From: Escherichia coli
GTDB lineage: Bacteria; Pseudomonadota; Gammaproteobacteria; Enterobacterales; Enterobacteriaceae
DNA length: 64,000 bases
Assembly: GCA_029351405.1 (NCBI GenBank)
Contig: GCA_029351405.1_4841.1
Reading direction: 5' to 3' (one strand)
In this document: positions 31,983 through 44,207 of the stretch, piece by piece
Layout: every line of letters starts with the position of its first letter
Numbering within the stretch: the first letter of the stretch is position 1
Notes under the pieces: generated by a model
Told to the model about the DNA's origin: nothing
The model's input: the letters and a program-made list of their open reading frames with translations, nothing else
Database searches by the model: none
Translations under genes and position numbers: made by a program

Positions 31983-34184
31983 TTAGATTTTGATTTCTTT
32001 CTCTGTCAGTTCGGCAGTGACCTTGTACTTCACCCCATCCACTTCAACTTCCATGGTGGACTCTTCCAGGTCGAGGTCGGTGAACCAGCCATGACCAGCA
32101 ACGATACCATACACCACTTTAGACAGCGTCTTGTTCAGGGCGCGGACTTCGGTGATGGCCGCCTTGGTAGCAGCGTCGATCCAGTTTTCGATCAGCTGTT
32201 TCTGTAGGGCTTCAGGCACGGCAGTGATCATAGGAGACTTCACAAATGCTTCGTACTCTTTCAGAGCATTGGCGATGAACAAGTCACCAGCATTGAGTTT
32301 CTTGTTCTCGGCGATCTTCTTCTGTACTGCCGCGATGCTCGGTAGTGAAGATGCCCCGGCGATCTTAACGTTCAGCTCACGGCTCATGTAGACGTCCGTG
32401 GAGTCCTTCAGTTCGGTCTTCGGTGAGAAGCCGTAATCGCGGATGCCGTAGGAGGACAGGAACTCGGCCGCCTCAGCGCCGTACTGTACTGCCAGGCCTT
32501 TGGCGTTACCCTTACCAACCAGGGCGTCTCGATAGAACTTCAGTACCTTCTGCTTGCCTTTCAGGGCTTCCAGGCGGACATTATCCGCAAAGAACTGAGC
32601 AGCACTGATGTTCTTGACCATGGCGCGGTTGACCAGCGGTACGCTTTCCAGGTTCAGGATGAACACTTCCGGACCACCAAACACGTGGACGCCCATTTCG
32701 ATCAGCTTCTGTACAACTTCGATATCAGCCTTGAACGGCAGAGTCTTCACGTTAATGATACCGTCTTTGACGATGGTGTAGTTGCGCCACTGGAAAGTAT
32801 CCAGTTCTTCAGGCAGGCCAAACTTCTTCTGTGCGAATTCAGGCACAGCCACAGTACCGTGTTGAATTGTACGCACACTGATGTTCGGGCGCTCGGAGTT
32901 ATAGACCAAATCGCTGATTGGCACAACACCCAGGTCGTTGGTAGGTTCGAACGTCGGGTTCCACTCTTCGTGTTCTGCCAGCTTGAGAGCCAGGGCTTTA
33001 CGCTCTTCTTTGGACTGAGCATTCGCGATCTGTTCTGCCAGCTTGTCTTCGGTGTCGTCGGTTTTCTGCACAGTACCGCGCCCGATACTCTTATAGGAGA
33101 ACATCGGATGCTTGGTAGCAACAGGCACACCAGCTTCAGCCAGGTACGTCAGCACATCAACGACGGTTGTCGCATCTTCAGCCGGAACCATGTCATAGTC
33201 AATACCGTCAACGCCGCGCAGCTGGTCATCAACAATCGCCTGAACCAGATCGTTCTTGATGTTGGAGTAGTCCTGCTTGGTGAAGCAGTTGCTGTACTGT
33301 TTGATGAAGCGAACGTCGCCCGTCTTCTTCAGCGCAGCCCAAACCAGATCTGCGTCCATAGTGTGTACGCCGTAGAACGCCAGCACGTATGCCGCCTGGA
33401 TGTCCGTCAGGCTATCCATCTGGTCGATCATGTTAGGGTTTACAACCCACAGCTTGGTGACGCTCTCAGGGATGCTCACATAGCCGACCGGGTGAGAGTC
33501 ATCGTCCTGTACCGCCAGCACTGTTGCCACACCGTTTTCGACGTAGATTGCATGGGTGTAGATGACTGGGACATCAACTTTCACCTTCGGCACTGATGAC
33601 TTCAGCACGTTTTCCAGTTCGTTCTGGTATTCGGTCTGACCTTCGGCAAACACGTGAGTAGCACCGGAGCGTTCGGCCATCTGCGCCAGCAGTTCGCGGT
33701 TACAGTACCAGCCGTATTCGATAAATGTAATGTTATCGAAAGCAAATGGCAGGGTCTCAGCAACCAGTAAGATTTCGTTGGTACGCCAGCAGTTGTCATA
33801 ACCATCGGTCATGAATGCCAGGTTGTTGACGTAGCCAGGTTTCTTCAGGTCACGCGCAGTATCCATCGCCAGTTTCAATGGCTCAACGAAACCAGTACAG
33901 CCGGATGGTTGCAGGAAACGGTCGATCAGTTTGTTCAGCTCGCTCAGGTCAGATGCGACACCGATCTGACGCCCGGCAAATACCGTTCCGAAATCACCGC
34001 GAGATGAAAAGTAAAGGATGCTCACAGTATCTTCGGGTTTCACCAGGGAAGGTAGGTTCTCCTTCAGATGCTTACGGACTTCTGGAAGTGAACGATACAT
34101 GGAACCGGAGATATCCACAACGATTACATGGTTAGACGGCGCGACGGTCGCAACCGCATTCTTAAATGTTAATGATTCAATCAT
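31983..34184 (-). CDS. von Willebrand factor A (vWA) domain protein (733 aa)
   Basis: ATG at 34184 (MIESLTF). MIDAS motif VVVDISGSM, then ILYFSS and MTDG. The large C-terminal region is unassigned. Confidence 0.75.
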   Translation of the reverse strand: MIESLTFKNAVATVAPSNHVIVVDISGSMYRSLPEVRKHLKENLPSLVKPEDTVSILYFSSRGDFGTVFAGRQIGVASDLSELNKLIDRFLQPSGCTGFVEPLKLAMDTARDLKKPGYVNNLAFMTDGYDNCWRTNEILLVAETLPFAFDNITFIEYGWYCNRELLAQMAERSGATHVFAEGQTEYQNELENVLKSSVPKVKVDVPVIYTHAIYVENGVATVLAVQDDDSHPVGYVSIPESVTKLWVVNPNMIDQMDSLTDIQAAYVLAFYGVHTMDADLVWAALKKTGDVRFIKQYSNCFTKQDYSNIKNDLVQAIVDDQLRGVDGIDYDMVPAEDATTVVDVLTYLAEAGVPVATKHPMFSYKSIGRGTVQKTDDTEDKLAEQIANAQSKEERKALALKLAEHEEWNPTFEPTNDLGVVPISDLVYNSERPNISVRTIQHGTVAVPEFAQKKFGLPEELDTFQWRNYTIVKDGIINVKTLPFKADIEVVQKLIEMGVHVFGGPEVFILNLESVPLVNRAMVKNISAAQFFADNVRLEALKGKQKVLKFYRDALVGKGNAKGLAVQYGAEAAEFLSSYGIRDYGFSPKTELKDSTDVYMSRELNVKIAGASSLPSIAAVQKKIAENKKLNAGDLFIANALKEYEAFVKSPMITAVPEALQKQLIENWIDAATKAAITEVRALNKTLSKVVYGIVAGHGWFTDLDLEESTMEVEVDGVKYKVTAELTEKEIKI

Positions 34185-34353
34185 CGTTTTGACCTTTTTG
34201 GGCTTTGGAGTGTTTGGAGTTCGCGTCGGCGTTCTCCAGCATAGTTTCAATGAAATCCCGGTTGTTTTCCATTTGGGCGACCAGAACATCACTGGGGCGG
34301 AATGATTTGTCAAGACAATCAAGTCCGGCGCGTTTTAATTTGTTGTCGGTCAT
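34177..34353 (-). CDS. hypothetical small protein (58 aa)
   Basis: ATG at 34353. Its 3' end overlaps the vWA start by 8 nt. Confidence 0.4.
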   Translation of the reverse strand: MTDNKLKRAGLDCLDKSFRPSDVLVAQMENNRDFIETMLENADANSKHSKAQKGQNDD

Positions 34354-34503: not shown

Positions 34504-35376
34504 TTATTTAAAGGAGTCTACAATGGATTTGAAAATATAATCTTTGGAGCGCTGTTGTACCGGGAGTTCTCCATACGGAACCATGCAAGGGTGTTGTTTG
34601 GTCTGAGGGTCTTTGACTGGGCCATACACCCAACCCTCAGACTCCTTCTCCGCCATCCATCTCTCATGCGATTCGCTGGGCTTACGATCACCAGTGAGGT
34701 GGAAGATAACACCTTTGCAAGCGCTCTCACGTTGCCAGGCCGGAGATTGTTCCCAAGGCAGTTGAGAGTCGTCACCAACAGACTTACAGTATGCGCGGTT
34801 GGCTTCATGACAAATCTTGGCGATGCGCAGAACCAATGGCGAATAAGTGAGATCGAGTTTGGAGTTGGCGCGCAGGAAATCACTAACAGTCTTACGAGAT
34901 TTGGCGTTATGAGATTCAACAACAAGTTCCATGTCATCCGGCCCACAAACGAAAGACGCCAAGAAGCGCTCACCATTTTCCGCTCTGAACGTCACGTCCT
35001 GAATCATCACATTGAAGCCGAGGTGATAGGCCGGATAGAGGGCGCTACGTTCAACAGCGTATTGATCGATCCGGATCTCTGCCGTTTCCGTGGCTTTGGC
35101 CAACAGATCTTGTTCAACAAGCGCCCGGTACGTCTCGAGCTGCCACAGCTGGTCGAAGGTATTATTGTAGGAAATCTCTTTGCCCAGGGCTTCATCGAAG
35201 TTGGCAGGGTCTATGGATGTGCTGGGCTTGGTGCCGTGAACGACGAAGCCGTTATCCATCTTGAAATGACAAGTGATAGCCCGGTGACCGCCGACTTCGC
35301 GGTCTTCGTAAATCACCTCAGCGATATGTGACTTCAGGACTTCAGGAGTGAGTTTTATGCCAGTACGAGTTGTCAT
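34504..35376 (-). CDS. fusion protein: N4-gp49/Sf6-gp66-like N-domain + RyR (ryanodine-receptor repeat) C-domain
   Basis: N-part ITCHFKMDNGFVVHG...DPANFDEALGKEISYNN..WQLETY. C-part HERWMAEKESEGWVYGPVKDPQTKQHPCMVPYGELPVQQRSKDY matches the RyR pattern GWxYGxxxDxxxKxHPxxVPYxEL. Confidence 0.65.
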   Translation of the reverse strand: MTTRTGIKLTPEVLKSHIAEVIYEDREVGGHRAITCHFKMDNGFVVHGTKPSTSIDPANFDEALGKEISYNNTFDQLWQLETYRALVEQDLLAKATETAEIRIDQYAVERSALYPAYHLGFNVMIQDVTFRAENGERFLASFVCGPDDMELVVESHNAKSRKTVSDFLRANSKLDLTYSPLVLRIAKICHEANRAYCKSVGDDSQLPWEQSPAWQRESACKGVIFHLTGDRKPSESHERWMAEKESEGWVYGPVKDPQTKQHPCMVPYGELPVQQRSKDYIFKSIVDSFK

Positions 35377-35819: not shown

Positions 35820-36191
35820 TTATTTCAGCAGCGCTTCCAGTTCTTCAATAGATTTGCCTTCCAGCTCCTGCTGTTTCTTACGCTGGATCAGCTCCAGGAT
35901 AACCTGGTTGTTCGCCTTACGCTCTGCCGCGTCTTTGATGTCGTCGCGTTCTTTCAGCTTAACACCGATGATGTGCTTGACAACGTCGAAGCGCAGCTGC
36001 AATTCGGAATCAACGTTGCTTTTGGTGCCAATGAAATCTTCTTCATCGGTTTCTGCTGCTTTCACCTGACGGCTCAGACCTTTCGCCATTTCGTTCAGGG
36101 CGGTCAGGCTCAGATCCCAAACCTGCTCAACAGACAGCAGACCTTTGTTAGACTCGAAGCGCAGTTTCAGACGGGTTACTTTATCAAACAT
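35820..36191 (-). CDS. hypothetical protein (123 aa)
   Basis: ATG with SD GAGGA. Helical and charged. Confidence 0.55.
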   Translation of the reverse strand: MFDKVTRLKLRFESNKGLLSVEQVWDLSLTALNEMAKGLSRQVKAAETDEEDFIGTKSNVDSELQLRFDVVKHIIGVKLKERDDIKDAAERKANNQVILELIQRKKQQELEGKSIEELEALLK

Positions 36192-36235
36192 TTTACTATC
36201 CTCAATGATGAATGGGTCACAATTTCAAATCAGGT

Positions 36236-38254
36236 TTAGAACACAACTTTCACAGTGCGGTTGAACGAGCCGCTCACCTTCACGAACACGTGGTTGCGTT
36301 GGGTGGTAGAGAAGCCCAGACCGGACAGCTGCTCAGTGCTTGGCTGTACTTTAATCTTACCACCTAACATTTCAAAAACCTTGCGGTGTTTATCAAGTTC
36401 CGGCTTCAGATATTCGTTATAGAAGCCACGGGTGCCGACAGGGTTAGCACAACCTTCCAGGATGAAGAACACGTGCTTGTTGCCAGTCTGCTCACCGTCC
36501 CAATGGTTTGGTGAGTTCAGAACCAGCTGTACCTTCTGGAAGACCGAGGTCTTGATGCCCCAGATTTCCTGAGAGCGAGCGTCGTCCTTCAGGGTAGAAC
36601 GGATGTCTACCACCTGACCAGCGCGGACATCAATCACAACAGCCAGAGTGCGATCTTTGTGCTTCAGACCAGGATGCGAAAAACGCTTGGTCTGGCCTTT
36701 GTATTCAACTTCGATTTCGAAGCCCATATCACAGGTTTCACGCTGGCTGAAGTTAGTGACATAGAACTCGTACAGACCATCACGCAGCTTGCGTTCATCG
36801 CTGAAGAAGATGTTCTCCACCGGGCGGCGGTTGGGATCAATGCCGTCCATACCGTTCATGTCGATATCCAGGGTTGCGCCAGTTGCCGAACGACGGTTGT
36901 GATAATACACGTGGTTGTGAAGAGGATCGTTCAGGCTCAGATCCAGGTCGTCGTTGTTATGCCAAGCCAGTGACACGCGGAGGAAGCTGTCGACATTGCC
37001 GCCTGCGGTCTTCACGCGCTCTTTGATAGAGTCGGCCACTTCGCCATTGTACGACCAGCTGAAGCCGTTGTTCCACTTGAACAGGTTAGGAGCGCCTGCG
37101 GTAGCCGGAGCGATCAGGGACATCAGGTTGCCAATGTGAGAGTTTTCGACCAGCACTTCCAGGGAATGCGCCTTTGGCAACACGTTGGTCAGGAAGTCGT
37201 CGATCGTGATCTCTTCAACCTTGTCCAGGGACTTGGTCGGAGTCTTCACTTCAGACGCCAGCTGAGCAAACGGGTCCATCTTCTTCTGAGCTGCCAGATC
37301 GGCGAACAGAACGTTGTTGATGGTCAGATCGTCATACACGGCATAACGGCGACCCAGTGAATCAGTCAGACCCAGCGCTTCGACTTCTTTCTGCGCGTTT
37401 TCAATCATAGACTTCGTGACCAGCGCGGTTGGGCGCTTGTAGTTCGTCGGAGCGACTTTGGTTTCAAAGGACTTCACGGCGGTTTCCAGATCCCGGCCTT
37501 CATTGAGGTCTACCAGCAGAGAGCCAATCACGGTATTACGAATGCCGTGAGGGGTATGACCGTTTGCACGGTAGCCAGTGCGCCAAGCCCACAGAGCGCG
37601 TTTCTCTTCTGCAGTTTGTTCGTACAGGGTCTTGTTCACCACAAACGCCTGCACTGCCGCTTTGTGCTCTTCACCGCGATACAGAGAATTCTGGTCGATC
37701 AATTCCAGAACGATTTCAGCCGATTCCAGAGACAGTTCACGCAGGCCGCGCTCAAACACTTCAATCGCCTGGCGGATTTCACCCTTCTTAGAAGCGATGG
37801 CATCTGCCCGCAGAACATAGCTGCCCAGCAGGTCGGTGTGGAAGTGGTTGTAGGTGCGGACAATACCGTCTTTCATTTCGTGATTCGACCCAACACCAAC
37901 TTTCTTGGTGTCGTTGAAGTACACGTCGACGATTGCGTGCTGCTTAACATACGCTGACAGCGCCGCAGCGACAACGTCATATTCGTTACCCAGCTGAATG
38001 TTATCCCAGATAGAGATCACGTTCAGGTCGGAGTCGATGGTGACCACACCGCCGATGTTACGGATGAATTGTTTACAGCAGGTGCAGTCGTGCTCGGTAC
38101 GCTCACGGTAGAGCGGGTTGGTACCAGCAGGGAAAGAAGACAGATACAGATCCCACAGAGCATCTTTATCGATGTTGGTCATGAACAGACCAGTTGCTGA
38201 CATGGCCAGCACGTTATTGTTGACAGCTACTGCGAAGGGCTTAAAATCTGACAT
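36236..38254 (-). CDS. large hypothetical protein (672 aa) with a Cys cluster and a possible TerD-like C-terminal module
   Basis: HDCTCCKQF near the N-terminus. DDLDLSL..HVYYHNRRSATGATLDIDMNG..PVENI loosely resembles the TerD DLDxS..VFYxN..S..G..GDN.TG pattern. The leader has a hairpin + ATTTGAA + GAAACAGGAAGATTACATCATG. Confidence 0.6.
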   Translation of the reverse strand: MSDFKPFAVAVNNNVLAMSATGLFMTNIDKDALWDLYLSSFPAGTNPLYRERTEHDCTCCKQFIRNIGGVVTIDSDLNVISIWDNIQLGNEYDVVAAALSAYVKQHAIVDVYFNDTKKVGVGSNHEMKDGIVRTYNHFHTDLLGSYVLRADAIASKKGEIRQAIEVFERGLRELSLESAEIVLELIDQNSLYRGEEHKAAVQAFVVNKTLYEQTAEEKRALWAWRTGYRANGHTPHGIRNTVIGSLLVDLNEGRDLETAVKSFETKVAPTNYKRPTALVTKSMIENAQKEVEALGLTDSLGRRYAVYDDLTINNVLFADLAAQKKMDPFAQLASEVKTPTKSLDKVEEITIDDFLTNVLPKAHSLEVLVENSHIGNLMSLIAPATAGAPNLFKWNNGFSWSYNGEVADSIKERVKTAGGNVDSFLRVSLAWHNNDDLDLSLNDPLHNHVYYHNRRSATGATLDIDMNGMDGIDPNRRPVENIFFSDERKLRDGLYEFYVTNFSQRETCDMGFEIEVEYKGQTKRFSHPGLKHKDRTLAVVIDVRAGQVVDIRSTLKDDARSQEIWGIKTSVFQKVQLVLNSPNHWDGEQTGNKHVFFILEGCANPVGTRGFYNEYLKPELDKHRKVFEMLGGKIKVQPSTEQLSGLGFSTTQRNHVFVKVSGSFNRTVKVVF

Positions 38255-38368
38255 GATGTAATCTTCCTGTTTCAGTTCAAATGTGCGCCCCGTTTGCCAG
38301 GGCGCTTCGTTTAAGTGAGGTCAATATACGCTGGATTGAGTTATTGAAGAACGAAGTAAAGGGAATCT

Positions 38369-39592
38369 TTATTCAGGTTTCTTCAAACGGTCCAGCAAAT
38401 TGACGGAACCACGTTTGAGCACGACTTCATCACAGCGCTTTTTGTATTCCCCACCGCCGTCATAGCTGACCTTGCCCCGAGGTTTTTCACCGCGCCCAAC
38501 CGCCTCAACACAGCGGGTGTACTTGCTCAGTTCACAGAACATGTTCTCCAGCTGCATAACGTTCATGCACTGATCTACAGGCTCTTCAGCCGACCAGAAT
38601 TGCTCACGAACATACCCATATTGGGAATACACCGCGTCCTGATTGTCCCGCAACCAGAAGATGCATTCTTCATGCGTCATGCCATCTTTGTCCTGGAACA
38701 TCAGATCAATCCCTGCGCGACAGCCTGGTCCAGCAACCGTGAAGTGGTTCTCACTGAAAGGATATCCAGGAATGTACGTGAAATCAACCCAGATCTGATA
38801 GGCCAGGAATGGACCAAGCCCTTCGATGTCGTCATACATGCGCTGGTATACTTCCAGAGGAGTACCAAGGCGCAGCAAGTCATGGAAATAGTTTGGATAC
38901 TTGTTGACGAATGCCTTCAGAGAACGGATAACACGCATCGGCATGTATGGTTCCCATCCCTCGATGGTATATTCACCAGGATTCTCTTCGACCAGCTTTT
39001 TGGCGACCTTGTAGTCCATCTCGTCCACAATACCCTGGCCAACGCGATACACTTTCACCATCATCCCACCGAAGCGCTGCTCCTTGTGGTTGACAACCAG
39101 CTCAGGGAAAGCCAGGCATTGCTTCAGGCCGCCCGTGTTGAAGGCATTGGTGAATACCTTACCGCCGTCGGCCTCGAACTTCTGAAGTCGTTCGCGGGTT
39201 GCATCAAGGTTGATCTTGGCGAATTCTTTGATCGTCATCGCGCCGCCGATAGCCTGGATTGGATCCCAGAGGTTGAACATGCGGAACAACACGCAGTTGA
39301 ACATCTTGTCGGCCATACCCAGAGCATCGTTGTTGACGATGTTGTTGATCAGGTTGAGAGACTGCCTGTCGTGCTCTCTCCGGACATTACAGAACTTGAC
39401 CTGCCGTAATATGGGATTATCAGTCCAAGGAGCAGGAAGGCGCTGGACATCCTTCTTGACGTGGATCTGATAACGATCGCGCATCCATTCGTAAGACAGG
39501 CGGGTATGGGTCGGACTGAGAACCGGTTTGGCCGACTTTATCTTTTCTTCACGGACACCGCAGTACGGGACGTCTAGGGCTTTATCTTTCAT
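38369..39592 (-). CDS. probable thymidine-hypermodification enzyme (alpha-glutamyl/putrescinyl thymine pyrophosphorylase, aGPT-Pplase-like)
   Basis: The N-terminal signature YEWMRDRYQIH..LPAPWTDNPILRQVKFCNVRREHDRQS matches my recollection of the aGPT-Pplase family (PWTxDPIL..FxNVxRExDR). Needs HMM confirmation. Confidence 0.5.
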   Translation of the reverse strand: MKDKALDVPYCGVREEKIKSAKPVLSPTHTRLSYEWMRDRYQIHVKKDVQRLPAPWTDNPILRQVKFCNVRREHDRQSLNLINNIVNNDALGMADKMFNCVLFRMFNLWDPIQAIGGAMTIKEFAKINLDATRERLQKFEADGGKVFTNAFNTGGLKQCLAFPELVVNHKEQRFGGMMVKVYRVGQGIVDEMDYKVAKKLVEENPGEYTIEGWEPYMPMRVIRSLKAFVNKYPNYFHDLLRLGTPLEVYQRMYDDIEGLGPFLAYQIWVDFTYIPGYPFSENHFTVAGPGCRAGIDLMFQDKDGMTHEECIFWLRDNQDAVYSQYGYVREQFWSAEEPVDQCMNVMQLENMFCELSKYTRCVEAVGRGEKPRGKVSYDGGGEYKKRCDEVVLKRGSVNLLDRLKKPE

Positions 39593-39660
39593 GGTATCCT
39601 CTTAGAATACGAAAACAGAGGCCATTATAGCCTCTGTTGTTTAGTGAATAACTGTATATC

Positions 39661-40533
39661 TTAATCGATACGGGTCAGTTGGGTGATAGATGATTGCACT
39701 GGGCTGGCCACATAGATACGGACGTTGGCTTTCCATTCACCCCAGATCAACGGTAGAGTTGGAAAGTTGTCTTCATTGAAAACAAACACGGGAATGTAGC
39801 TCTCGACTGTTTCGCCAGAGAACGCCTGGAAGCCCATCTTGGTGTATCCCACGATCTCGTCAATAAAATCGAACGGCGCGTAGGCAACACCAGCATGTTC
39901 GTTGCATCCGAGTCGACCTGGGGTAGCCGTGCCCGTCAGAATGATTTCGGTGATCTGGCGCTTAGGCTCGGTGGTCAACATATCAGAGAAGTCAGGCTCT
40001 TTGAAGGTTGCCATGTTCTTCAGGAACTTGCCAGCCGGGTATTCTTTGCCGTCGACGGTGATGGTGTTCACCACTTTGATACACGCCTGAGGGAATTCCC
40101 CTTCGATGCGCAGACTTTCGCGTGGGAAGCCTTTGTTGTAGTAGTAATCCAGTGCTGGCACAACTTCACCTTCATTACGGATGAACTTGCTCATGTTAGA
40201 GGCATACACGCGTTGTAGGCATTCGTCACCGTCGAAACCAGCAATATGAGCCACACCGTCGTTGACTGTTGTGATGTCGCCCTGAGCATCCATGATCTGG
40301 CGCATAATGCCTTTGATGTCGACAACAACGGGTTCTTTCAGGACTCGCGGAGATGCAGTGAACTCAATTTTCACCTCATGGTCGAAATACGCCGCTTCCA
40401 GCAGTTCACGGGTTTCTTCCAGCACCAGTTTCGCCTGATTGCGGATCTTGTCAAAATTGGGCGACGTGACATCGCCCTTTGCATTACCGAAAGCCAGATT
40501 CAGATTCACGTTCTTAGAAAATGTAGTTGTCAT
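39661..40533 (-). CDS. two-domain protein with an N-terminal all-alpha NTP pyrophosphohydrolase (MazG/HisE-like) module
   Basis: LVLEETRELLEA ... IMDAQGDITTV ... VYASNMSKF fits the EExxE/D...D metal ligands and SNxSK motif of that fold. The C-terminal half is unassigned. Confidence 0.4.
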   Translation of the reverse strand: MTTTFSKNVNLNLAFGNAKGDVTSPNFDKIRNQAKLVLEETRELLEAAYFDHEVKIEFTASPRVLKEPVVVDIKGIMRQIMDAQGDITTVNDGVAHIAGFDGDECLQRVYASNMSKFIRNEGEVVPALDYYYNKGFPRESLRIEGEFPQACIKVVNTITVDGKEYPAGKFLKNMATFKEPDFSDMLTTEPKRQITEIILTGTATPGRLGCNEHAGVAYAPFDFIDEIVGYTKMGFQAFSGETVESYIPVFVFNEDNFPTLPLIWGEWKANVRIYVASPVQSSITQLTRID

Positions 40534-40549
40534 GATTTAGCGACTCCAG

Positions 40550-41014
40550 TTATTCGCTTTTGGCCTTTGTAGGCCGGATAATGTATTTTGGGACCAGCTT
40601 CCATTCAGGAACCTGATCGTGTTTAACCACTTTAATGCGTGACATATCAGCGGCTTCGGTGACCTGCTCAGGATGAATGACCTTCACCATGTTCCACTGC
40701 TCCAGCAGCTTGATGATTCGGTTCATCCTCAGGACATCTTCGCGGTTAAATCCGTTGTAATGCCCGTCCAGCATAAATAGATGCTTAAAGTGGACGATAT
40801 AATACTTACCACACTTATGAAGAATATGGCAAGTCTGATACAGAGTATTCGGCTCTTGGCGCGTGTTTACCCCAATTCGACTCAGTGTTTCCTTGATCCC
40901 CAGGAATATACCTGGCCGATCTTGGTTCAATTGAACTTCAACCATACAATCAACGATGCTGGCCTCATCGTTGACTGCTGAAATATTCAATATGTCTAGC
41001 GTATTACGCGCCAT
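40550..41014 (-). CDS. regA: translational repressor RegA homologue (N-terminally extended)
   Basis: IKETLSRIGV..NTLYQTCHILHKCGKYYIVHFKHLFMLDG ... EWKLVPKY parallels T4 RegA VKETLTRMGI..VLYQSCHILQKKGLYYIVHFKEMLRMDG ... EWKLVPKY. Sits after 44-62 as in T4. Confidence 0.85.
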   Translation of the reverse strand: MARNTLDILNISAVNDEASIVDCMVEVQLNQDRPGIFLGIKETLSRIGVNTRQEPNTLYQTCHILHKCGKYYIVHFKHLFMLDGHYNGFNREDVLRMNRIIKLLEQWNMVKVIHPEQVTEAADMSRIKVVKHDQVPEWKLVPKYIIRPTKAKSE

Positions 41015-41042
41015 GACTCATTCCCCTTTACAATAGTTTGAA

Positions 41043-41465
41043 CTACTTAGCCTTGCGCGGTTTCGCTTTGGCGTTCAGCTCAGTGCGTCTCATCTTCTCG
41101 CGTATCTCGGCCAGGACTTCCTTCGGCAAGAAACGGACGTACTCCGATGCCTTCTCCATGCTGATGTAGAAGTACTCTGAGAGTAACTTCACGTCAGGAT
41201 CAATCGGACCTTTCTTAGACCATTTGTCGTAGCGTTTCCGAGCCGGAATGGTGTAAAAGGCATATGACCATTGCATCCATGGAGTGATAGCATGTAGCTT
41301 ATTCATCTGTTGCGCAGCCACTAGAGTGTCTTTGCTCTGAGCTAAACCACGCCGCGTCATAAACGGGTCGAATCCTTTCAACACTTCTGGGTCATCAGAC
41401 CGCAAAAGGTTTTCTTTGCTGCTGTTCAGAGCAGCCAGGTAATCGAACAATCCAAGGGCGGCCAT
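41043..41465 (-). CDS. gp62: clamp-loader small subunit (T4 gp62-like)
   Basis: Synteny. FMTRRGL...TIPARKRYDKWSKK parallels T4 gp62 FMVENAL...AVPRGKRYGKWAKL. ATG at 41465. Confidence 0.65.
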   Translation of the reverse strand: MAALGLFDYLAALNSSKENLLRSDDPEVLKGFDPFMTRRGLAQSKDTLVAAQQMNKLHAITPWMQWSYAFYTIPARKRYDKWSKKGPIDPDVKLLSEYFYISMEKASEYVRFLPKEVLAEIREKMRRTELNAKAKPRKAK

Positions 41466-41469
41466 AATA

Positions 41470-42459
41470 TCACTTCCACTTGATGTTGAGCATGACATTG
41501 GTCAGGAAAAACACAGCATGCAACCAGACATCGCCGACTTGGCGGTGTTCAATCTGAGACTGACCACATACGCACACCAGATCAGGGATAGACTCATTCT
41601 GAACCAACATTTGCTTCTCTTTATCCTGTGGCACACAGAACTGGAAGAAGCGGGAATAGAAGTCTTCAGTGATATAGTTCTGGTTGTCGGTCACCCACTG
41701 CTTCATCCCAGCCCAGTCATTATCCTTCAACATATTCACCAACATGCCCATATCGGCCGATTTTAACACAGCCAGTGCACGTTCGTCGATCTTGCCGTAA
41801 GTGGTGACGTTATCCTGTAGAACACCCATGATGCGGCGGTTATCAGGGAAATGGCGCTTGACAATAGCAGCCAACACAGGAGGGTCATACTCAACACCTT
41901 CGCTGCGAAGGATTTCAGCACAGCGGCGCATGAACTGAAGTTTGACCTCATCAGCCTCAGTCTCATTCCAGATAAAGTCGATTTCACGGCAACGAGAGCG
42001 CAGAGGTTCGTTCACACGTTGCTTGGCGTTGGTGGTCAGGATGAATGAACAGTTCTTGGAGACCTTCTCCACAATACCCTTCAGCGACTCCTGCGCCGCC
42101 ATAGACAGACGCTCTACTTCGTCGAGGATAACGACTTTGCGACCACCGAATACACTCACACCAGTAGAGTACTGAATCACGCGGTCACGGATAACGTCGA
42201 TACTGTTGTCCAGGGATGCGTTGATCATCAGTGGTTGCTTACAACCGATCTCGTTACACACAGCCAGGGCGGAGGTAGTCTTGCCAGTACCAGGCTGAGG
42301 GGAGTAGAACAGCATAGACGGGATGTTACCGTTGCCGCTGGTGATGTAGCCATGGATTTTAGCGCGGACGTCTTGAGGGATGATAATCTCGTCCAGGTTG
42401 TCAGGGCGGAAACGGTTCTCCCAGGCGTACTGGTCTTTTACAATCGTGATATTAGACAT
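41470..42459 (-). CDS. gp44: clamp-loader large subunit, AAA+ (T4 gp44-like)
   Basis: WENRFRP, Walker A PQPGTGKTT, Walker B VVILDEVE and SRC motif LRSRCREI. The C-terminus ...NIKWK matches the T4 gp44 end ...EMQWK. Confidence 0.88.
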   Translation of the reverse strand: MSNITIVKDQYAWENRFRPDNLDEIIIPQDVRAKIHGYITSGNGNIPSMLFYSPQPGTGKTTSALAVCNEIGCKQPLMINASLDNSIDVIRDRVIQYSTGVSVFGGRKVVILDEVERLSMAAQESLKGIVEKVSKNCSFILTTNAKQRVNEPLRSRCREIDFIWNETEADEVKLQFMRRCAEILRSEGVEYDPPVLAAIVKRHFPDNRRIMGVLQDNVTTYGKIDERALAVLKSADMGMLVNMLKDNDWAGMKQWVTDNQNYITEDFYSRFFQFCVPQDKEKQMLVQNESIPDLVCVCGQSQIEHRQVGDVWLHAVFFLTNVMLNIKWK

Positions 42460-43115
42460 TATGTATTTCCATGATATAGTTTACAGAACAGAACCCAAGC
42501 GTCGTCATCATACGGGTTCCAGCCCTCTTTGAATTTGTTTAACATACTCGTTGCGGTGTTCTCTTTAATAGAGAACAAACGGGCAATTCTATGGCACCCA
42601 TCACCAGTAGAAACCCAGTGATCATACACTACCCCAGCCTTTAACCACATCGGTCTGGTGTTGTGTAGCAGCGCAGCCCCGGTGTCCCAGGGTTTTATTC
42701 CTGCGGCGGGGTGGCTTTTACCAGTTCTTCCGTGCATGGGATGAAGATTCCCAGACTTGCCCTTCAACCAACTCGAGACACCAACTCGGTGATGTTTAGG
42801 TCCCGCTGACCTACCGTTGGCGATACCACAACCCCGTGGCTGAAATGATTTGTTTAAACATTTTGGGTGATCAATGTTCTCACTAATCAACTGCTGCTCT
42901 CTCCAATATGCTTCTTCTGGGGAGTCAAACAGTTCTACGAATTCTACATCAAAGAAATCAGAACCTTTCTTAGATATGATTTCCTTGACTGTTTGTGAAG
43001 AAGTGAAATATGAAGTGAACAATTGTAAAGGATGTGCACCCAATTTCGTTCTAGAACCAAAATAGAAAGAACCATCCTTCCCTAACAAATGATATACAAA
43101 CGGTTGGTTCCTCAT
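42459..43115 (-). CDS. GIY-YIG homing endonuclease (T4 Seg-like) with NUMOD3-like repeats
   Basis: FVYHLLGKDGSFYFGSRT (GIY...YIG variant), EEAYWREQQLI, CLN, then GNLHPMHGRTGKSHPAAG. ATG at 43115 with SD GAGG. TAATG overlap with gp44. Confidence 0.7.
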   Translation of the reverse strand: MRNQPFVYHLLGKDGSFYFGSRTKLGAHPLQLFTSYFTSSQTVKEIISKKGSDFFDVEFVELFDSPEEAYWREQQLISENIDHPKCLNKSFQPRGCGIANGRSAGPKHHRVGVSSWLKGKSGNLHPMHGRTGKSHPAAGIKPWDTGAALLHNTRPMWLKAGVVYDHWVSTGDGCHRIARLFSIKENTATSMLNKFKEGWNPYDDDAWVLFCKLYHGNT

Positions 43116-43180
43116 TTCAGCCTCGTGTAGAAGAATCATTTCAAATAGGCGGGGAACTCCCCCGCCCACACATTATAGCA
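42459..43180 (-). mobile_element. free-standing homing-endonuclease insertion between gp45 and gp44
   Basis: Interrupts the otherwise T4-conserved 45-44 junction. Carries its own extended -10 (TGcTATAAT at 43172-43180) and a leader hairpin. Confidence 0.6.
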
Positions 43181-43196
43181 TCAGGCTGGAGATTGA

Positions 43197-43865
43197 TTAC
43201 TCAATCTGTGCGCCGACGAAGTAATTGATCGTCGCGTCGGATGATTGGAAGTTCACCATCTGTAGATCAGCACATGCACGCAGAGTGTAGTTGCCTTCGA
43301 TCATTTTCAGGTTGGCAACATCCAGCGGCATTACGAAGTCCGGCAGCGCGGTTTCGCCCAGCTCAACAGTGTAATTGTTGGAGTTGTCCAGGGTAGTGGT
43401 GGTTGCAACCAGGCGTGTTTTGCCACCCTGAGCAACCAGACGCACAGTCTTATGTCCTAGGGTAGAGCAGGCGCGGGTCAGTTCTTTCATCTTCTCTGGA
43501 GTGATGATCGCTTCAAAATCGACAGACGGCAGTTCAATGGTGTCAGCCGGAACAACAGTGAGTTCTTTAGCAGAACGCCAGAATTGCAGCTGAGAGCTTT
43601 CGCCTTTCAACAGGATGTAGTCCTGATGGAATTCGGCTTTGGCACCTTTGAAGGAAGGTAGGCGCTGGATGGCCAGAAGTTTGGTCAGGTCCAGAATCGG
43701 GAACTCAAACGGGAAGTCTTCTTCGATCTGCGCCACGGCGATCACAGTAGAAGAATCATTAATACTGCGCAGCATCTTGCCCGGTGTCAGAACGATAGAT
43801 GGGTTGATGGTCTCAAAGTTGGCCAGCAACTGAAGTGTACGTTCAGAGAGAGTGATCTCTTGCAT
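43197..43865 (-). CDS. gp45: sliding clamp (T4 gp45-like)
   Basis: 222 aa. The N-terminus LQLLANFETINPSIVL parallels T4 ALLKNFATINSGIML. The length and position match. Confidence 0.8.
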   Translation of the reverse strand: MQEITLSERTLQLLANFETINPSIVLTPGKMLRSINDSSTVIAVAQIEEDFPFEFPILDLTKLLAIQRLPSFKGAKAEFHQDYILLKGESSQLQFWRSAKELTVVPADTIELPSVDFEAIITPEKMKELTRACSTLGHKTVRLVAQGGKTRLVATTTTLDNSNNYTVELGETALPDFVMPLDVANLKMIEGNYTLRACADLQMVNFQSSDATINYFVGAQIE

Positions 43866-44207
43866 TTGTATGTATCCTCAAAATATAGTGGGGGTTCAAG
43901 TCATGTTTGACGCAATCTAGTATCGCTGTGTTTTGCTTATAGAACAAGTGGCAAATTGCGCTACGCGTTATTAATAAATGCCTTCGGCATTTATGGACTT
44001 TATTAAAGATAATAACCTTTATTAATCCTATTCGCTTCGCTCATAAAACAAATACTCGTTGTTCGCTAACGCTCACAACTCGTATAATACCACGCCGTTG
44101 TTCAACAAGAAAGCAGTTTTTATTCAACAGCAAAAATAATTTATTTGGTCTAAACATGCACGCGAAATAATATGTATGTCATGTTAACCAACACACGAGA
44201 GTAATAT
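43866..44207. other. 342-bp AT-rich divergent control region (largest non-coding tract in the window)
   Basis: Contains hairpin AAATGCCttcgGCATTT (43974-43991), three TTTATTAA repeats, direct repeats TTCGCTtCGCTCAtAA / TTCGCTaaCGCTCAcAA, two CGTTGTTC copies, and plus-strand promoter-like TTGTTC-N18-TATAAT and TTGGTC-N17-TAATAT. Confidence 0.6.

What the first reader, a model, noticed from the sequence alone, without database searches (positions are those of the whole stretch)
38369..40533. Probable thymidine-hypermodification enzymes occupying the slot where T4 has its DNA polymerase
The block 45-44-62-regA is in exact T4 order. Where T4 continues with gene 43, this phage has two other genes. 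One is a 290-aa protein with a MazG/HisE-like all-alpha NTP pyrophosphohydrolase module (LEETRELLEA, MDAQGD, SNMSKF). The other is a 407-aa protein whose N-terminus (LPAPWTDNPILRQVKFCNVRREHDRQS) matches my recollection of the aGPT-Pplase family, which decorates 5-hydroxymethyl-dU in DNA. Together they suggest non-canonical thymidine in this genome: pool sanitation plus post-replicative base modification.
Basis: partly seen in the sequence, partly recalled or inferred. Interest (0 to 1): 0.5.

Follow-up and report, generated by a model that had tools for sequence, protein, structure and literature searches.

The report
Known thymidine-hypermodification paralogue plus MazG-like gene
The two genes are real and are the counterparts of phage ViI genes 160 and 161, in a phage family already known to replace part of its thymidine with 5-NeOmdU, so the finding is ordinary; the exact job of the 407-aa enzyme, however, has never been worked out.

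Summary
Both ORFs exist exactly as described, as do the quoted motifs and the 45-44-62-regA order. One GIY-YIG homing-endonuclease ORF sits between 45 and 44.

The window is an Agtrevirus-like Ackermannviridae phage, 97% identical to Escherichia phage YX22. The family is known to carry 5-NeOmdU.

**407-aa protein.** It matches Pfam PF18723 (E 5e-82). This family was formerly called aGPT-Pplase clade 1 and is now named "5-hmdU DNA kinase, helical domain". The protein is 88% identical to ViI gp160 and sits in the same position. It is not the proven serine:DNA transferase. That enzyme is the clade-2 paralogue gp247 (PF18724), which lies outside the window. ViI 5-NeOmdU synthesis was reconstituted from purified kinase, gp247 and gp226, with no role given to gp160. 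So membership of the toolkit is supported, but "decorates 5-hmdU" is unproven for this paralogue.

**290-aa protein.** It is a weak but consistent MazG-like NTP pyrophosphohydrolase. Its homologues also occur in N4-like phages. The orthologue of the proven pathway dTTPase/dUTPase is a different gene.

**Verdict.** Already known; low interest.

**Residual lead.** Clade 1 keeps a Cys/Glu motif that aligns to the catalytic pair of clade 2. Its most consistent neighbour is a thymidylate-synthase-like gene. It is a candidate for the unidentified step that converts 5-hmdU to thymidine.

The parts
38369..39592 (-). 407-aa clade-1 aGPT-Pplase-family protein (Pfam PF18723, now named HMUDK_hel); orthologue of Salmonella phage ViI orf00160 / gp160
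38522..38548 (-). Motif E349-N-M-F-C353-E354-L-S-K357, the putative catalytic Glu/Cys of the 407-aa protein
   Evidence: Translation ENMFCELSK. Conservation over 140 family representatives: C353 96%, E354 95%, K357 95%, N350 90%, E349 84% plus Q 14%. hhalign places E349/C353 on E243/C247 of PaMx11 gp46. Mutating these residues in gp46/PUGT was tested in PMC11472151, and the equivalent Cys/Glu of M6 gp51 and ViI gp247 are essential (PMC8989533).
38951..39097 (-). Insertion of about 49 aa (residues 166-214) specific to Ackermannviridae; beta-hairpin plus helix in the model
   Evidence: More than 60% of 140 family members have gaps here. DSSP of the model: E178-183, E188-193, H194-203, E208-210. 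Most family hits match in two stretches.
39614..39638 (-). Perfect 11-bp stem / 3-nt loop hairpin in the 68-nt spacer between the two genes; its T-tail is weak
   Evidence: Terminator-like scan; sequence read. Function not tested.
39661..40533 (-). 290-aa MazG-like NTP pyrophosphohydrolase; orthologue of ViI orf00161
   Evidence: ORF. PHROG 2144 'MazG-like pyrophosphatase' E 3e-132. 58% identical to ViI orf00161. No Pfam or NCBIfam hit. Family profile hits the MazG-like protein DR2231 in PDB, E 4.7e-4 to 5e-3.
39964..40533 (-). Conserved N-terminal module (residues 1-190) of the 290-aa protein, with EETRE (40405-40419), DAQGD (40276-40290), SNMSKF (40183-40200) and a GKxxPxGKFLKN motif
   Evidence: Alignment A3: E40, E43, D82, D86, S112, S115, K116, F117, G168, K169 invariant. 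Stand-alone homologues of 175-183 aa occur in Pectobacterium phage A38 and Pseudomonas phage Cygsa01.
39661..39963 (-). C-terminal extension (residues 191-290) of the 290-aa protein; unknown fold; restricted to part of the Ackermannviridae
   Evidence: Absent from Serratia Ackermannviridae and from N4-like homologues. AF2 model unusable, pLDDT 39. Not similar to the bacterial MazG_C domain, hhalign E 0.77.
40550..43865 (-). Synteny anchor: regA (40550-41014), gp62-like (41043-41498), gp44-like (41470-42459), GIY-YIG homing-endonuclease-like ORF (42459-43169), gp45-like (43197-43865)
   Evidence: Pfam hits; annotations of relatives.

Best explanation
These are the Agtrevirus orthologues of Salmonella phage ViI genes orf00160 (gp160) and orf00161. 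The genome belongs to the Ackermannviridae, which build DNA with 5-hydroxymethyl-dU and convert it after replication into a mixture of 5-NeOmdU and thymidine.

**407-aa protein.** It is the clade-1 member (PF18723) of the aGPT-Pplase superfamily.
- Shown: it is a helix-hairpin-helix, glycosylase-like protein.
- Shown: it keeps a nearly invariant E-N-x-x-C-E-x-x-K motif that aligns with the catalytic Glu/Cys of the solved clade-2 amino-acid:DNA transferases.
- Inferred: it uses Cys353 to add to C6 of a C5-activated hydroxymethyl-uracil. This would generate an exocyclic methylene, which is then captured by a second substrate.
- Unknown: that second substrate.
- Shown by others: it is not the serine transferase that makes 5-NeOmdU (that is gp247), and it was not needed for the purified in-vitro pathway.

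**290-aa protein.** It is an all-alpha MazG-like (d)NTP pyrophosphohydrolase with an extra C-terminal extension. It most likely trims a pyrimidine dNTP pool (inferred). It is not the orthologue of the proven pathway dTTPase/dUTPase.
For: **Lineage.** 97% nucleotide identity to YX22, and hits across Ackermannviridae.

**407-aa protein.**
- Family: PF18723, E 5e-82.
- Orthology and synteny with ViI gp160/gp161.
- gp160 is listed as the aG/PT-PPlase paralogue in PMC5889632 Table 3.
- The SW16-7 Agtrevirus orthologue is published as aGPT-Pplase1.
- hhalign of clade 1 against clade 2: E 0.0033, placing E349/C353 on E243/C247.
- C353 is 96% conserved in 140 representatives.
- Fusions with the 5-hmdU DNA kinase occur in SP10 gp186 and in P0243.
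- In Vibrio phage D506 the orthologue sits inside one cluster with kinase 2, the clade-2 transferase, a thymidylate-synthase-like gene, a dNMP kinase and an NTP-PPase.

**Rest of the pathway.** All the other pathway genes are present in YX22, outside the window-equivalent region.

**290-aa protein.** PHROG 2144; profile hit to DR2231; conserved EExxE / DxxxD / SNMSKF motifs.
Against: - No activity has ever been shown for any PF18723 protein.
- Full-length SP10 gp186 plus ATP gave only 5-PmdU (PMC8989533).
- The clade-1 / clade-2 profile alignment is weak: HHalign probability 9.8%. Foldseek found nothing significant in PDB. HMM searches of PDB sequences found nothing.
- In 81 bacterial loci and most of 79 viral contigs, PF18723 occurs without a detectable 5-hmdU DNA kinase or clade-2 gene nearby. 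Action on phosphorylated hmU in DNA is therefore not the only possibility.
- The MazG-like protein gets no Pfam or NCBIfam hit, and its structure prediction failed.
Confidence: 0.78

Rival explanations
1. The 407-aa protein is itself the transferase that decorates 5-hmdU to make the hypermodified base. The MazG-like protein is the dedicated pool sanitiser of that pathway.
For: - Same superfamily as the proven transferases.
- gp160 was one of the five lysates that together made 5-NeOmdU (PMC5889632).
- SP10 has only a clade-1 domain and no clade-2 hit anywhere in its genome. There, clade 1 could be the glutamate transferase.
- MazG-type genes recur near PF18723 genes in bacteria (40 of 81 loci) and in viral contigs (20 of 79).
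Against: - In ViI, the serine transfer is done by gp247. 5-NeOmdU was rebuilt from purified kinase, gp247 and gp226. gp160 is not among the proteins given a function (PMC8989533).
- Only one hypermodified base has been reported in ViI, CBA120 and phiHS2 DNA.
- The MazG-like N-domain family also occurs in N4-like phages.
- The proven dTTPase/dUTPase of phage 15599 carries a dUTPase_2 domain. Its ViI/YX22 counterpart is orf00063, outside the window.
Confidence: 0.15
2. Clade 1 is the missing enzyme that converts the non-hypermodified (phospho-)5-hmdU residues in DNA to thymidine. It would use the same Cys-C6 / exocyclic-methylene chemistry, with a hydride donor in place of an amino acid.
For: - PMC5889632 states that how 5-hmdU becomes thymidine is unknown.
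- A PF18723 gene or domain is present in each thymidine-hypermodifying phage checked here: ViI, this phage, PaMx11 gp50, phage 15599 Orf49 and SP10 gp186C. For M6-like SN1 it is reported in the published annotation. dT alongside the modified base is cited here for the ViI group, phiHS2, phage 15599, phiW-14 and SP10.
- The family was reported as restricted to the hypermodifying phages among seven genomes examined, which included SPO1.
- The catalytic Cys/Glu are retained.
- Clade-2 enzyme plus NaBH4 yields thymidine from 5-PmdU, so the chemistry is feasible.
- Kinase fusions exist.
- It co-occurs with TAGT-type glycosyltransferases in 23 of 79 viral contigs. This fits a role independent of the kind of hypermodification.
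Against: - No reductant-binding feature was identified.
- Most viral and all bacterial contexts lack a detectable kinase.
- Thymidine could instead come from competition with host dTTP, as assumed for phage 15599.
- SP10 gp186 with ATP alone gave only 5-PmdU.
Confidence: 0.25
3. Clade 1 works with the thymidylate-synthase-like hydroxymethylase on free nucleotides, or independently of the DNA kinase. In this reading it belongs to the pre-replicative pool module, not the post-replicative DNA step.
For: - A thymidylate-synthase-superfamily gene is its most frequent neighbour. It lies within 3 kb in 42 of 79 viral contigs, mostly directly downstream. It lies immediately upstream in 26 of 81 bacterial loci; hhalign to the TS family gives probability 90.6%, E 1.3e-6.
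- It is adjacent to that gene in PaMx11 and phage 15599.
- Other frequent partners are dCMP deaminase, a YfbR-like 5'-deoxynucleotidase and MazG.
Against: - It is fused to a kinase that acts on DNA.
- It has an HhH DNA-glycosylase-like fold. In clade 2, the homologous region holds residues whose mutation was tested for DNA binding (L142, W146, K150).
- Gene adjacency may only reflect a shared pathway.
Confidence: 0.12
4. Clade 1 is a non-catalytic DNA-binding 'helical domain' that merely assists the 5-hmdU DNA kinase, as the current Pfam name suggests.
For: - Pfam name HMUDK_hel.
- Fusions with the kinase.
- Not required for 5-NeOmdU synthesis in vitro.
Against: - The SP10 kinase domain alone is active.
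- Cys, Glu and Lys in the motif that aligns with the clade-2 catalytic site are near-invariant.
- The family is abundant in genomes and contigs with no detectable kinase.
Confidence: 0.08

Closest known systems
Salmonella phage ViI (Vi01) gp160 = orf00160 / Vi01_130c, 'aG/PT-PPlase' paralogue (Lee et al. 2018, PMC5889632)
   Same: 407 aa, 88% identical, the same flanking genes (MazG-like orf00161, regA, 62, 44, 45), the same Pfam family PF18723.
   Different: Nothing of substance. The window's phage is an Agtrevirus-like member of the Aglimvirinae, whereas ViI is a Kuttervirus. A homing endonuclease sits between 45 and 44 here.
Clade-2 aGPT-Pplase / amino-acid:DNA transferase (PF18724 ADDT): ViI gp247, M6 gp51, PaMx11 gp46 (PUGT, PDB 8Z2M/8Z2N), phage 15599 DADT
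   Different: No PF18724 profile hit. Only about 13-14% identity. No demonstrated activity, and not needed for 5-NeOmdU in vitro. Carries a 49-aa insertion and a distinct conserved N-terminal PWT...KFxNxRRExDR block. The metal-binding residues of clade 2 were not mapped.
SP10 gp186 (5-hmdU DNA kinase fused to a PF18723 domain)
   Same: The C-terminal domain (residues 313-598) is PF18723, with the E..CCE..KY motif.
   Different: In SP10 the domain is fused to the kinase and is the only aGPT-Pplase-family member in the genome. Here it is a separate protein with a clade-2 paralogue elsewhere in the genome.
DR2231 of Deinococcus radiodurans and the MazG / PRA-PH all-alpha NTP pyrophosphohydrolases
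   Same: The family profile of the 290-aa protein aligns over about 80 residues, including the EExxE, D..D and N-x-S-K motifs, E 4.7e-4. From my own recollection, not checked here: DR2231 prefers dUTP.
   Different: No Pfam MazG or PRA-PH hit for the protein itself. It has an extra GKFLKN-containing segment and a 100-aa C-terminal extension. Substrate unknown.
Phage 15599 gp18 dTTPase/dUTPase (PMC13458397)
   Same: A pathway-linked pyrophosphohydrolase in another Ackermannviridae phage that hypermodifies thymidine.
   Different: gp18 is a dNMP-kinase-like domain plus a dUTPase_2 domain. Its ViI/YX22 counterparts are orf00065 and orf00063, not the 290-aa protein.
Bacterial PF18723 operons (predicted, unvalidated defence or modification systems; Iyer et al. 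2013 as cited; DefensePredictor PMC13092281)
   Same: PF18723 gene next to a MazG-type gene (40 of 81 loci) and a thymidylate-synthase-like gene (26 of 81).
   Different: The bacterial MazG carries the MazG_C domain (PF18722), which is not detectably related to the phage C-terminal extension. These operons add DUF1643, a dCTP-deaminase-like gene and XRE / M78-peptidase regulators. No 5-hmdU DNA kinase was detected.

Membership tests
PF18723 (aGPT-Pplase clade 1 / HMUDK_hel) | Profile match above the curated threshold over the whole domain | tested here: met
   275.8 bits against a cut-off of 25; residues 30-364 on profile positions 4-278 of 281.
PF18723 (aGPT-Pplase clade 1 / HMUDK_hel) | Orthology to the reference member ViI gp160 (sequence and synteny) | tested here: met
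   88% identity over the full length; same neighbours.
PF18723 (aGPT-Pplase clade 1 / HMUDK_hel) | Helix-hairpin-helix DNA-glycosylase-like all-alpha fold | tested here: met
PF18723 (aGPT-Pplase clade 1 / HMUDK_hel) | Family-wide conserved residues (PWT, FxNxxRxxDR, FLAYQxxVDxTY, GPGC, ENxxCExxKY) | tested here: met
   All are present in the query; conservation is 84-97% in 140 representatives.
PF18723 (aGPT-Pplase clade 1 / HMUDK_hel) | Biochemical activity on 5-hmdU or 5-PmdU | not testable with these tools
   No activity is reported for any member in the papers read.
PF18724 (clade 2, amino-acid:DNA transferase, AADT/ADDT) | Profile match | tested here: not met
   No hit at E<=10. A local clade-2 HMM finds nothing in the window. 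ViI gp247 and D506 0195 do hit it.
PF18724 (clade 2, amino-acid:DNA transferase, AADT/ADDT) | Catalytic Glu-x3-Cys shown essential by mutagenesis | tested here: inconclusive
   E349/C353 align to E243/C247 of gp46, but the profile-profile E-value is only 0.0033 and the probability 9.8%.
PF18724 (clade 2, amino-acid:DNA transferase, AADT/ADDT) | Transfer of an amino acid or amine to 5-PmdU DNA | not testable with these tools
   Needs an enzyme assay.
MazG / all-alpha NTP pyrophosphohydrolase superfamily | Pfam MazG, MazG-like or PRA-PH profile match | tested here: not met
   No Pfam hit at E<=10 for the 290-aa protein. Distant homologues hit MazG/PRA-PH only below threshold.
MazG / all-alpha NTP pyrophosphohydrolase superfamily | Sequence relationship to a solved MazG-like enzyme, and the acidic EExxE...DxxD metal-binding motifs | tested here: met
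   Family profile against PDB: DR2231, E 4.7e-4 to 5e-3, aligned over the motifs. E40, E43, D82 and D86 are invariant. PHROG 2144, E 3e-132.
MazG / all-alpha NTP pyrophosphohydrolase superfamily | Four-helix-bundle fold | tested here: inconclusive
   AF2 model pLDDT 38.9, unusable.
Ackermannviridae 5-NeOmdU pathway (system level) | dUMP hydroxymethylase-like TS, 5-hmdU DNA kinases 1 and 2, clade-2 transferase and PLP decarboxylase all in the genome | tested here: inconclusive
   None lies in the 64-kb window. All are present in the 97% relative YX22 outside the window-equivalent region, at 47-92% identity to the ViI proteins. The rest of this genome is not available.
Ackermannviridae 5-NeOmdU pathway (system level) | 5-NeOmdU in virion DNA | not testable with these tools
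   Shown for ViI, CBA120 and phiHS2 in the literature, not for this phage.
T4-type replication gene block | Order 45-44-62-regA on one strand | tested here: met
   A homing-endonuclease ORF is inserted between 45 and 44.

The most novel reading that the evidence does not exclude
The 407-aa protein (PF18723, clade 1) may be the long-sought enzyme that converts the 5-hmdU (or 5-PmdU) residues not chosen for hypermodification into ordinary thymidine. It would use the Cys353 / exocyclic-methylene chemistry of its clade-2 relatives, with a hydride donor. More broadly, PF18723 may be a distinct catalytic family whose real partner is the thymidylate-synthase-like hydroxymethylase and not the DNA kinase after which Pfam now names it.
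Probability: 0.25. Interest if true: 0.7.

Novelty: already known. Interest (0 to 1): 0.25.

Why it matters
As it stands, the finding re-discovers a published gene pair in a phage family whose thymidine hypermodification (5-NeOmdU) and biosynthetic genes are already described. It adds little.

What remains open is the function of the clade-1 paralogue.
- It is conserved in every thymidine-hypermodifying phage examined here.
- It is widespread: 4478 representatives at E<=1e-3, and at least 583 loci in bacterial species genomes.
- It retains a catalytic-looking Cys/Glu motif.
- No activity has been assigned to it.
- The step from 5-hmdU to thymidine, known since the 1980s for phiW-14 and SP10, has no assigned enzyme.

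A direct assay of this protein would test that link.

Tried and rejected
**Searches that found nothing.**
- Single-sequence and profile HMM searches of PDB sequences with the 407-aa protein.
- NCBIfam and PADLOC for both proteins.

**Analyses that failed or came out negative.**
- AlphaFold of the 290-aa protein from a shallow alignment failed (pLDDT 39). No fold search was run on it.
- I tested whether its C-terminal part is the bacterial MazG_C domain. It is not detectably so.

**Ideas considered and rejected.**
- That the 407-aa protein is a kinase, as its Pfam name might suggest. Reading the sequence, it has no Walker A motif, and Pfam reports only the helical domain.
- That it is a clade-2 or clade-3 enzyme. 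There is no profile hit.
- That the 'polymerase slot' position has functional meaning. The polymerase is simply elsewhere in all relatives.

**Tool and library limits.**
- P0290 is not on record.
- Iyer et al. 2013 and the EcoSal review by Hutinet et al. are not in the held library. The original family definitions are therefore cited second-hand.
Full report
**1. Observation**

- 38369-39592, 407 aa;
- 39661-40533, 290 aa.

The quoted peptide strings translate from the stated DNA. Upstream on the same strand lie:
- RegA (40550-41014; Pfam Translat_reg, E 2e-34);
- a gp62-like clamp-loader subunit (41043-41498);
- a gp44-like AAA+ subunit (41470-42459);
- a gp45-like clamp (43197-43865).

One detail was missed. 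A 236-aa GIY-YIG-like homing-endonuclease ORF (42459-43169) sits between 45 and 44 (annotated as such in a relative). A perfect 11-bp hairpin lies in the 68-nt spacer between the two genes of interest.

**2. What genome this is**

Bases 36000-44000 are 97.1% identical over their full length to Escherichia phage YX22. They are 93-97% identical to other Agtrevirus-like phages (PC3, AV101, Ag3, SW16-7), with weaker hits across 285 Ackermannviridae records. The gene pair is therefore a conserved feature of a well-sampled phage family.

**3. The 407-aa protein**

*Family and orthology.*
- Pfam gives one strong hit: PF18723, E 5.2e-82, covering residues 30-364. No other family appears even at E<=10.
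- PF18723 is now called 'HMUDK_hel, 5-hmdU DNA kinase helical domain'. It is the family earlier called aGPT-Pplase clade 1. The orthologue in Yersinia phage CAU_YEP3 carries that name. The Agtrevirus SW16-7 paper lists its orthologue as aGPT-Pplase1. The sister families are PF18724 (now ADDT, amino-acid:DNA transferase, formerly clade 2) and PF18746 (still named clade 3).
- In Salmonella phage ViI the gene in the same position is orf00160 (Vi01_130c, 407 aa). It is flanked by orf00161 (MazG-like) and regA. The window protein is 88% identical to it over its full length.
- The gp numbers used by Lee et al. correspond to these orf numbers. gp160 is the aG/PT-PPlase paralogue in Table 3 of PMC5889632.

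*What is known experimentally.*
- Five ViI lysates (gp67, gp160, gp226, gp243, gp247) together made 5-NeOmdU from 5-hmdU DNA (PMC5889632).
- The follow-up study (PMC8989533) assigned the kinases gp67 and gp243, the serine:DNA transferase gp247 (clade 2) and the PLP decarboxylase gp226. It rebuilt each step with purified proteins.
- gp160 received no function there. Later structural and pathway papers on clade 2 do not mention clade 1.
The activity it attached to this protein belongs to the paralogue.

*Structure and active site.*
- An AlphaFold model built from a 25-sequence alignment is confident (pLDDT 86.6, pTM 0.82).
- Foldseek against PDB gave nothing significant.
- Profile-profile comparison of 140 clade-1 against 121 clade-2 sequences is weak (E 0.0033, probability 9.8%). 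It spans 151 columns and puts E349/C353 of the query on E243/C247 of PaMx11 gp46.
- E243A and C247A were among the PUGT mutants tested in PMC11472151. The equivalent Cys and Glu of M6 gp51 and ViI gp247 are essential.
- Across 140 representatives clustered at 50% identity: C353 is 96% conserved, E354 95%, K357 95%, N350 90%, and E349 84% with a further 14% Gln.
- I infer, but have not shown, that clade 1 is a catalytic enzyme using the same chemistry: Cys addition at C6, then an exocyclic methylene.
- Ackermannviridae members carry a 49-aa insertion (residues 166-214) that most of the family lacks.

**4. Context of PF18723 elsewhere**

*Size of the family.* It has 4478 representatives at E<=1e-3 and at least 583 loci in one-per-species bacterial genomes.

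*Links to the DNA kinase.* It is fused to the 5-hmdU DNA kinase in SP10 gp186 (kinase at residues 35-193, PF18723 at 313-598) and, in the opposite order, in P0243. SP10 has no clade-2 hit anywhere in its genome.

*Clustering with pathway genes in phages.*
- In Vibrio phage D506 the orthologue lies in one cluster with kinase 2, the clade-2 transferase, a thymidylate-synthase-like gene, a dNMP kinase and an NTP pyrophosphohydrolase.
- In PaMx11 it is gp50, between the kinase gp49 and the thymidylate-synthase-like gp51.
- In Acinetobacter phage 15599, the subject of the 2026 dapT paper, a PF18723 gene (Orf49) lies directly upstream of the dUMP hydroxymethylase and the dTTPase/dUTPase gp18. My term searches of that paper found no mention of it.

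*Seventy-nine IMG/VR contigs.*

| Partner gene | Window searched | Contigs |
|---|---|---|
| Thymidylate-synthase-superfamily gene | ±10 kb | 54 |
| Thymidylate-synthase-superfamily gene, mostly directly downstream | ±3 kb | 42 |
| 5-hmdU DNA kinase | ±10 kb | about 18 |
| Clade-2 gene | ±10 kb | 2 |
| YfbR-like 5'-deoxynucleotidase | ±3 kb | 24 |
| TET-associated glycosyltransferase | ±3 kb | 23 |
| dCMP deaminase | ±3 kb | 21 |
| MazG | ±3 kb | 20 |

*Eighty-one bacterial loci (neighbours within 4 kb).*

| Partner gene | Loci |
|---|---|
| MazG plus MazG_C | 40 |
| DUF1643 | 26 |
| Divergent thymidylate-synthase-like protein, immediately upstream (hhalign probability 90.6%) | 26 |
| XRE / M78-peptidase pair | about 27 |
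| dCTP-deaminase-like gene | 19 |
| 5-hmdU DNA kinase, clade-2 gene or PLP enzyme (whole locus, ±8 kb) | 0 |

DefensePredictor lists aGPT-Pplase / MazG / MazG-C operons as predicted, unvalidated defence systems. The family's most constant partner is therefore the hydroxymethylase-type enzyme, not the kinase after which Pfam now names it.

**5. The 290-aa protein**

- Pfam and NCBIfam are silent. PHROGs places it in phrog_2144 'MazG-like pyrophosphatase' (E 3e-132).
- It is 58% identical to ViI orf00161.
- A profile that includes distant homologues hits the MazG-like NTP pyrophosphohydrolase DR2231 in PDB (E 4.7e-4 for one variant chain, 5e-3 for the 2yeu chain). The alignment runs through the EExxE, D..D and N-x-S-K motifs.
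- Distant homologues touch Pfam MazG and PRA-PH just below threshold.
- The conserved module is residues 1-190. It occurs alone (175-183 aa) in N4-like Pectobacterium and Klebsiella phages, and after 45-44-62-regA in Pseudomonas phage Cygsa01.
- Residues 191-290 are an extension confined to part of the Ackermannviridae. That extension is not detectably the bacterial MazG_C domain.
- The structure prediction failed (pLDDT 39).
- The proven pathway dTTPase/dUTPase of phage 15599 is a dNMP-kinase-like domain plus a dUTPase_2 domain. Its ViI and YX22 counterparts are orf00065 and orf00063, next to the hydroxymethylase and kinase 1 and outside this window.
- 'MazG-like NTP pyrophosphohydrolase' is therefore supported. 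'The pool sanitiser of the thymidine pathway' is not.

**6. Rest of the pathway**

None of the other ViI pathway genes, nor the DNA polymerase, is in the window. The window corresponds to about 44.4-111.5 kb of YX22. The remainder of YX22 encodes orthologues of the following:

| ViI protein | Identity in YX22 |
|---|---|
| gp67 (kinase 1) | 88% |
| Thymidylate-synthase-like hydroxymethylase | 77% |
| dNMP kinase | 90% |
| dUTPase_2 | 61% |
| gp226 (PLP decarboxylase) | 92% |
| gp243 (kinase 2; inside a 532-aa protein) | 47% |
| gp247 (clade-2 transferase) | 90% |
| DNA polymerase | 87% |

5-NeOmdU has been measured in ViI, CBA120 and phiHS2, but not in this phage.

**7. Mechanism and rivals**

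*Best-supported statement.* The 407-aa protein is the gp160 orthologue, a catalytically competent-looking clade-1 enzyme of the 5-hmdU pathway with an unknown second substrate. The 290-aa protein is a MazG-like (d)NTP pyrophosphohydrolase of unknown specificity.

*Most interesting rival.* Clade 1 performs the unassigned conversion of 5-hmdU to thymidine.
- Lee et al. state that this step is unknown.
- The family is present in each thymidine-hypermodifying phage I checked, and was reported as restricted to the hypermodifying phages among seven genomes that included SPO1.
- Borohydride plus a clade-2 enzyme already makes thymidine from 5-PmdU.
- Against it: many contexts lack a kinase, no reductant site was recognised, and thymidine may simply come from host dTTP.
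- I put it at about 0.25.

**8. Verdict**

The genes, the family and the DNA modification of this phage lineage are already in the literature, down to an Agtrevirus annotation of this very gene. Novelty: already known. Interest is low. One testable lead remains: the unassigned function of PF18723.

Noticed in passing
window 42459-43169 (-): A 236-aa GIY-YIG-like homing-endonuclease ORF lies between the gp45-like and gp44-like genes (weak SegE_GIY-YIG hit, E 0.0034). Relatives that cover only 92% of 36000-44000 in two pieces probably lack it, so it looks like a mobile insertion.
   Followed up: partly
window 39614-39638 (-): A perfect 11-bp stem / 3-nt loop hairpin (AACAGAGGCTATAATGGCCTCTGTT) with a T-poor tail lies between the MazG-like stop codon and the 407-aa start codon. 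It could be a partial terminator or an RNA-stability element.
   Followed up: no
L015-L095 (bacterial genome loci): PF18723 is widespread in bacteria, with at least 583 loci. It sits in operons of the form XRE / M78 peptidase / divergent thymidylate-synthase-like / PF18723 / DUF1643 / MazG+MazG_C / dCTP-deaminase-like. No 5-hmdU DNA kinase or clade-2 gene was detected. The Pfam name 'kinase helical domain' does not fit most members.
   Followed up: partly
L096 4376-5251 and 8961-9926 (Acinetobacter phage SH-Ab 15599): In this Ackermannviridae phage the clade-2 transferase gene lies directly after the gp44 / gp62 / regA-like genes, in the same slot as the pair studied here. A PF18723 gene (Orf49) lies directly upstream of the dUMP hydroxymethylase and the dTTPase/dUTPase. 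My term searches of the 2026 dapT paper found no mention of it.
   Followed up: partly
L180 22382-24295 (Bacillus phage SP10 gp186) and the whole SP10 genome (L180-L182): SP10 gp186 is a 5-hmdU DNA kinase (PF18748) fused to PF18723. No clade-2 (PF18724-like) gene was detectable anywhere in SP10. The clade-1 domain is therefore the only aGPT-Pplase-family member in a phage that makes both alpha-glutamylthymidine and thymidine from 5-hmdU.
   Followed up: partly
L101-L179 (IMG/VR contigs): In 23 of 79 viral contigs the clade-1 gene lies within 3 kb of a TET-associated-glycosyltransferase-like gene and a thymidylate-synthase-like gene. Microbacterium phage Alakazam (L008) shows the same arrangement. 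This suggests phages that glycosylate 5-hydroxymethylpyrimidine and also carry clade 1.
   Followed up: no
L100 37436-39034 (Escherichia phage YX22): The kinase-2 (PF18747) orthologue of the closest relative is only 47% identical to ViI gp243. It forms the C-terminal 300 residues of a 532-aa protein with an unannotated 235-aa N-terminal part.
   Followed up: no
window 36236-38254 (-): The 672-aa ORF just downstream of the 407-aa gene (phrog_1735, unknown function, no Pfam hit) is conserved in the family. In the ViI record it is annotated as two ORFs (Vi01_128c and Vi01_129c).
   Followed up: no
window 34504-35376 (-) and 31983-34322 (-): A 290-aa protein combines an N4 gp49/Sf6 gp66-family domain with a RyR domain. 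A 779-aa protein (phrog_2426) is annotated in a relative as containing a vWFA domain. Both are conserved Ackermannviridae genes of unknown role.
   Followed up: no
L011 (Pseudomonas phage Cygsa01): The order 45-44-62-regA followed (after one opposite-strand ORF) by a 175-aa homologue of the MazG-like N-domain also occurs in this 166-kb Pseudomonas phage, whose annotation compares its clamp protein with phiW-14 gp45. The regA / MazG-like adjacency therefore extends beyond the enterobacterial Ackermannviridae.
   Followed up: no
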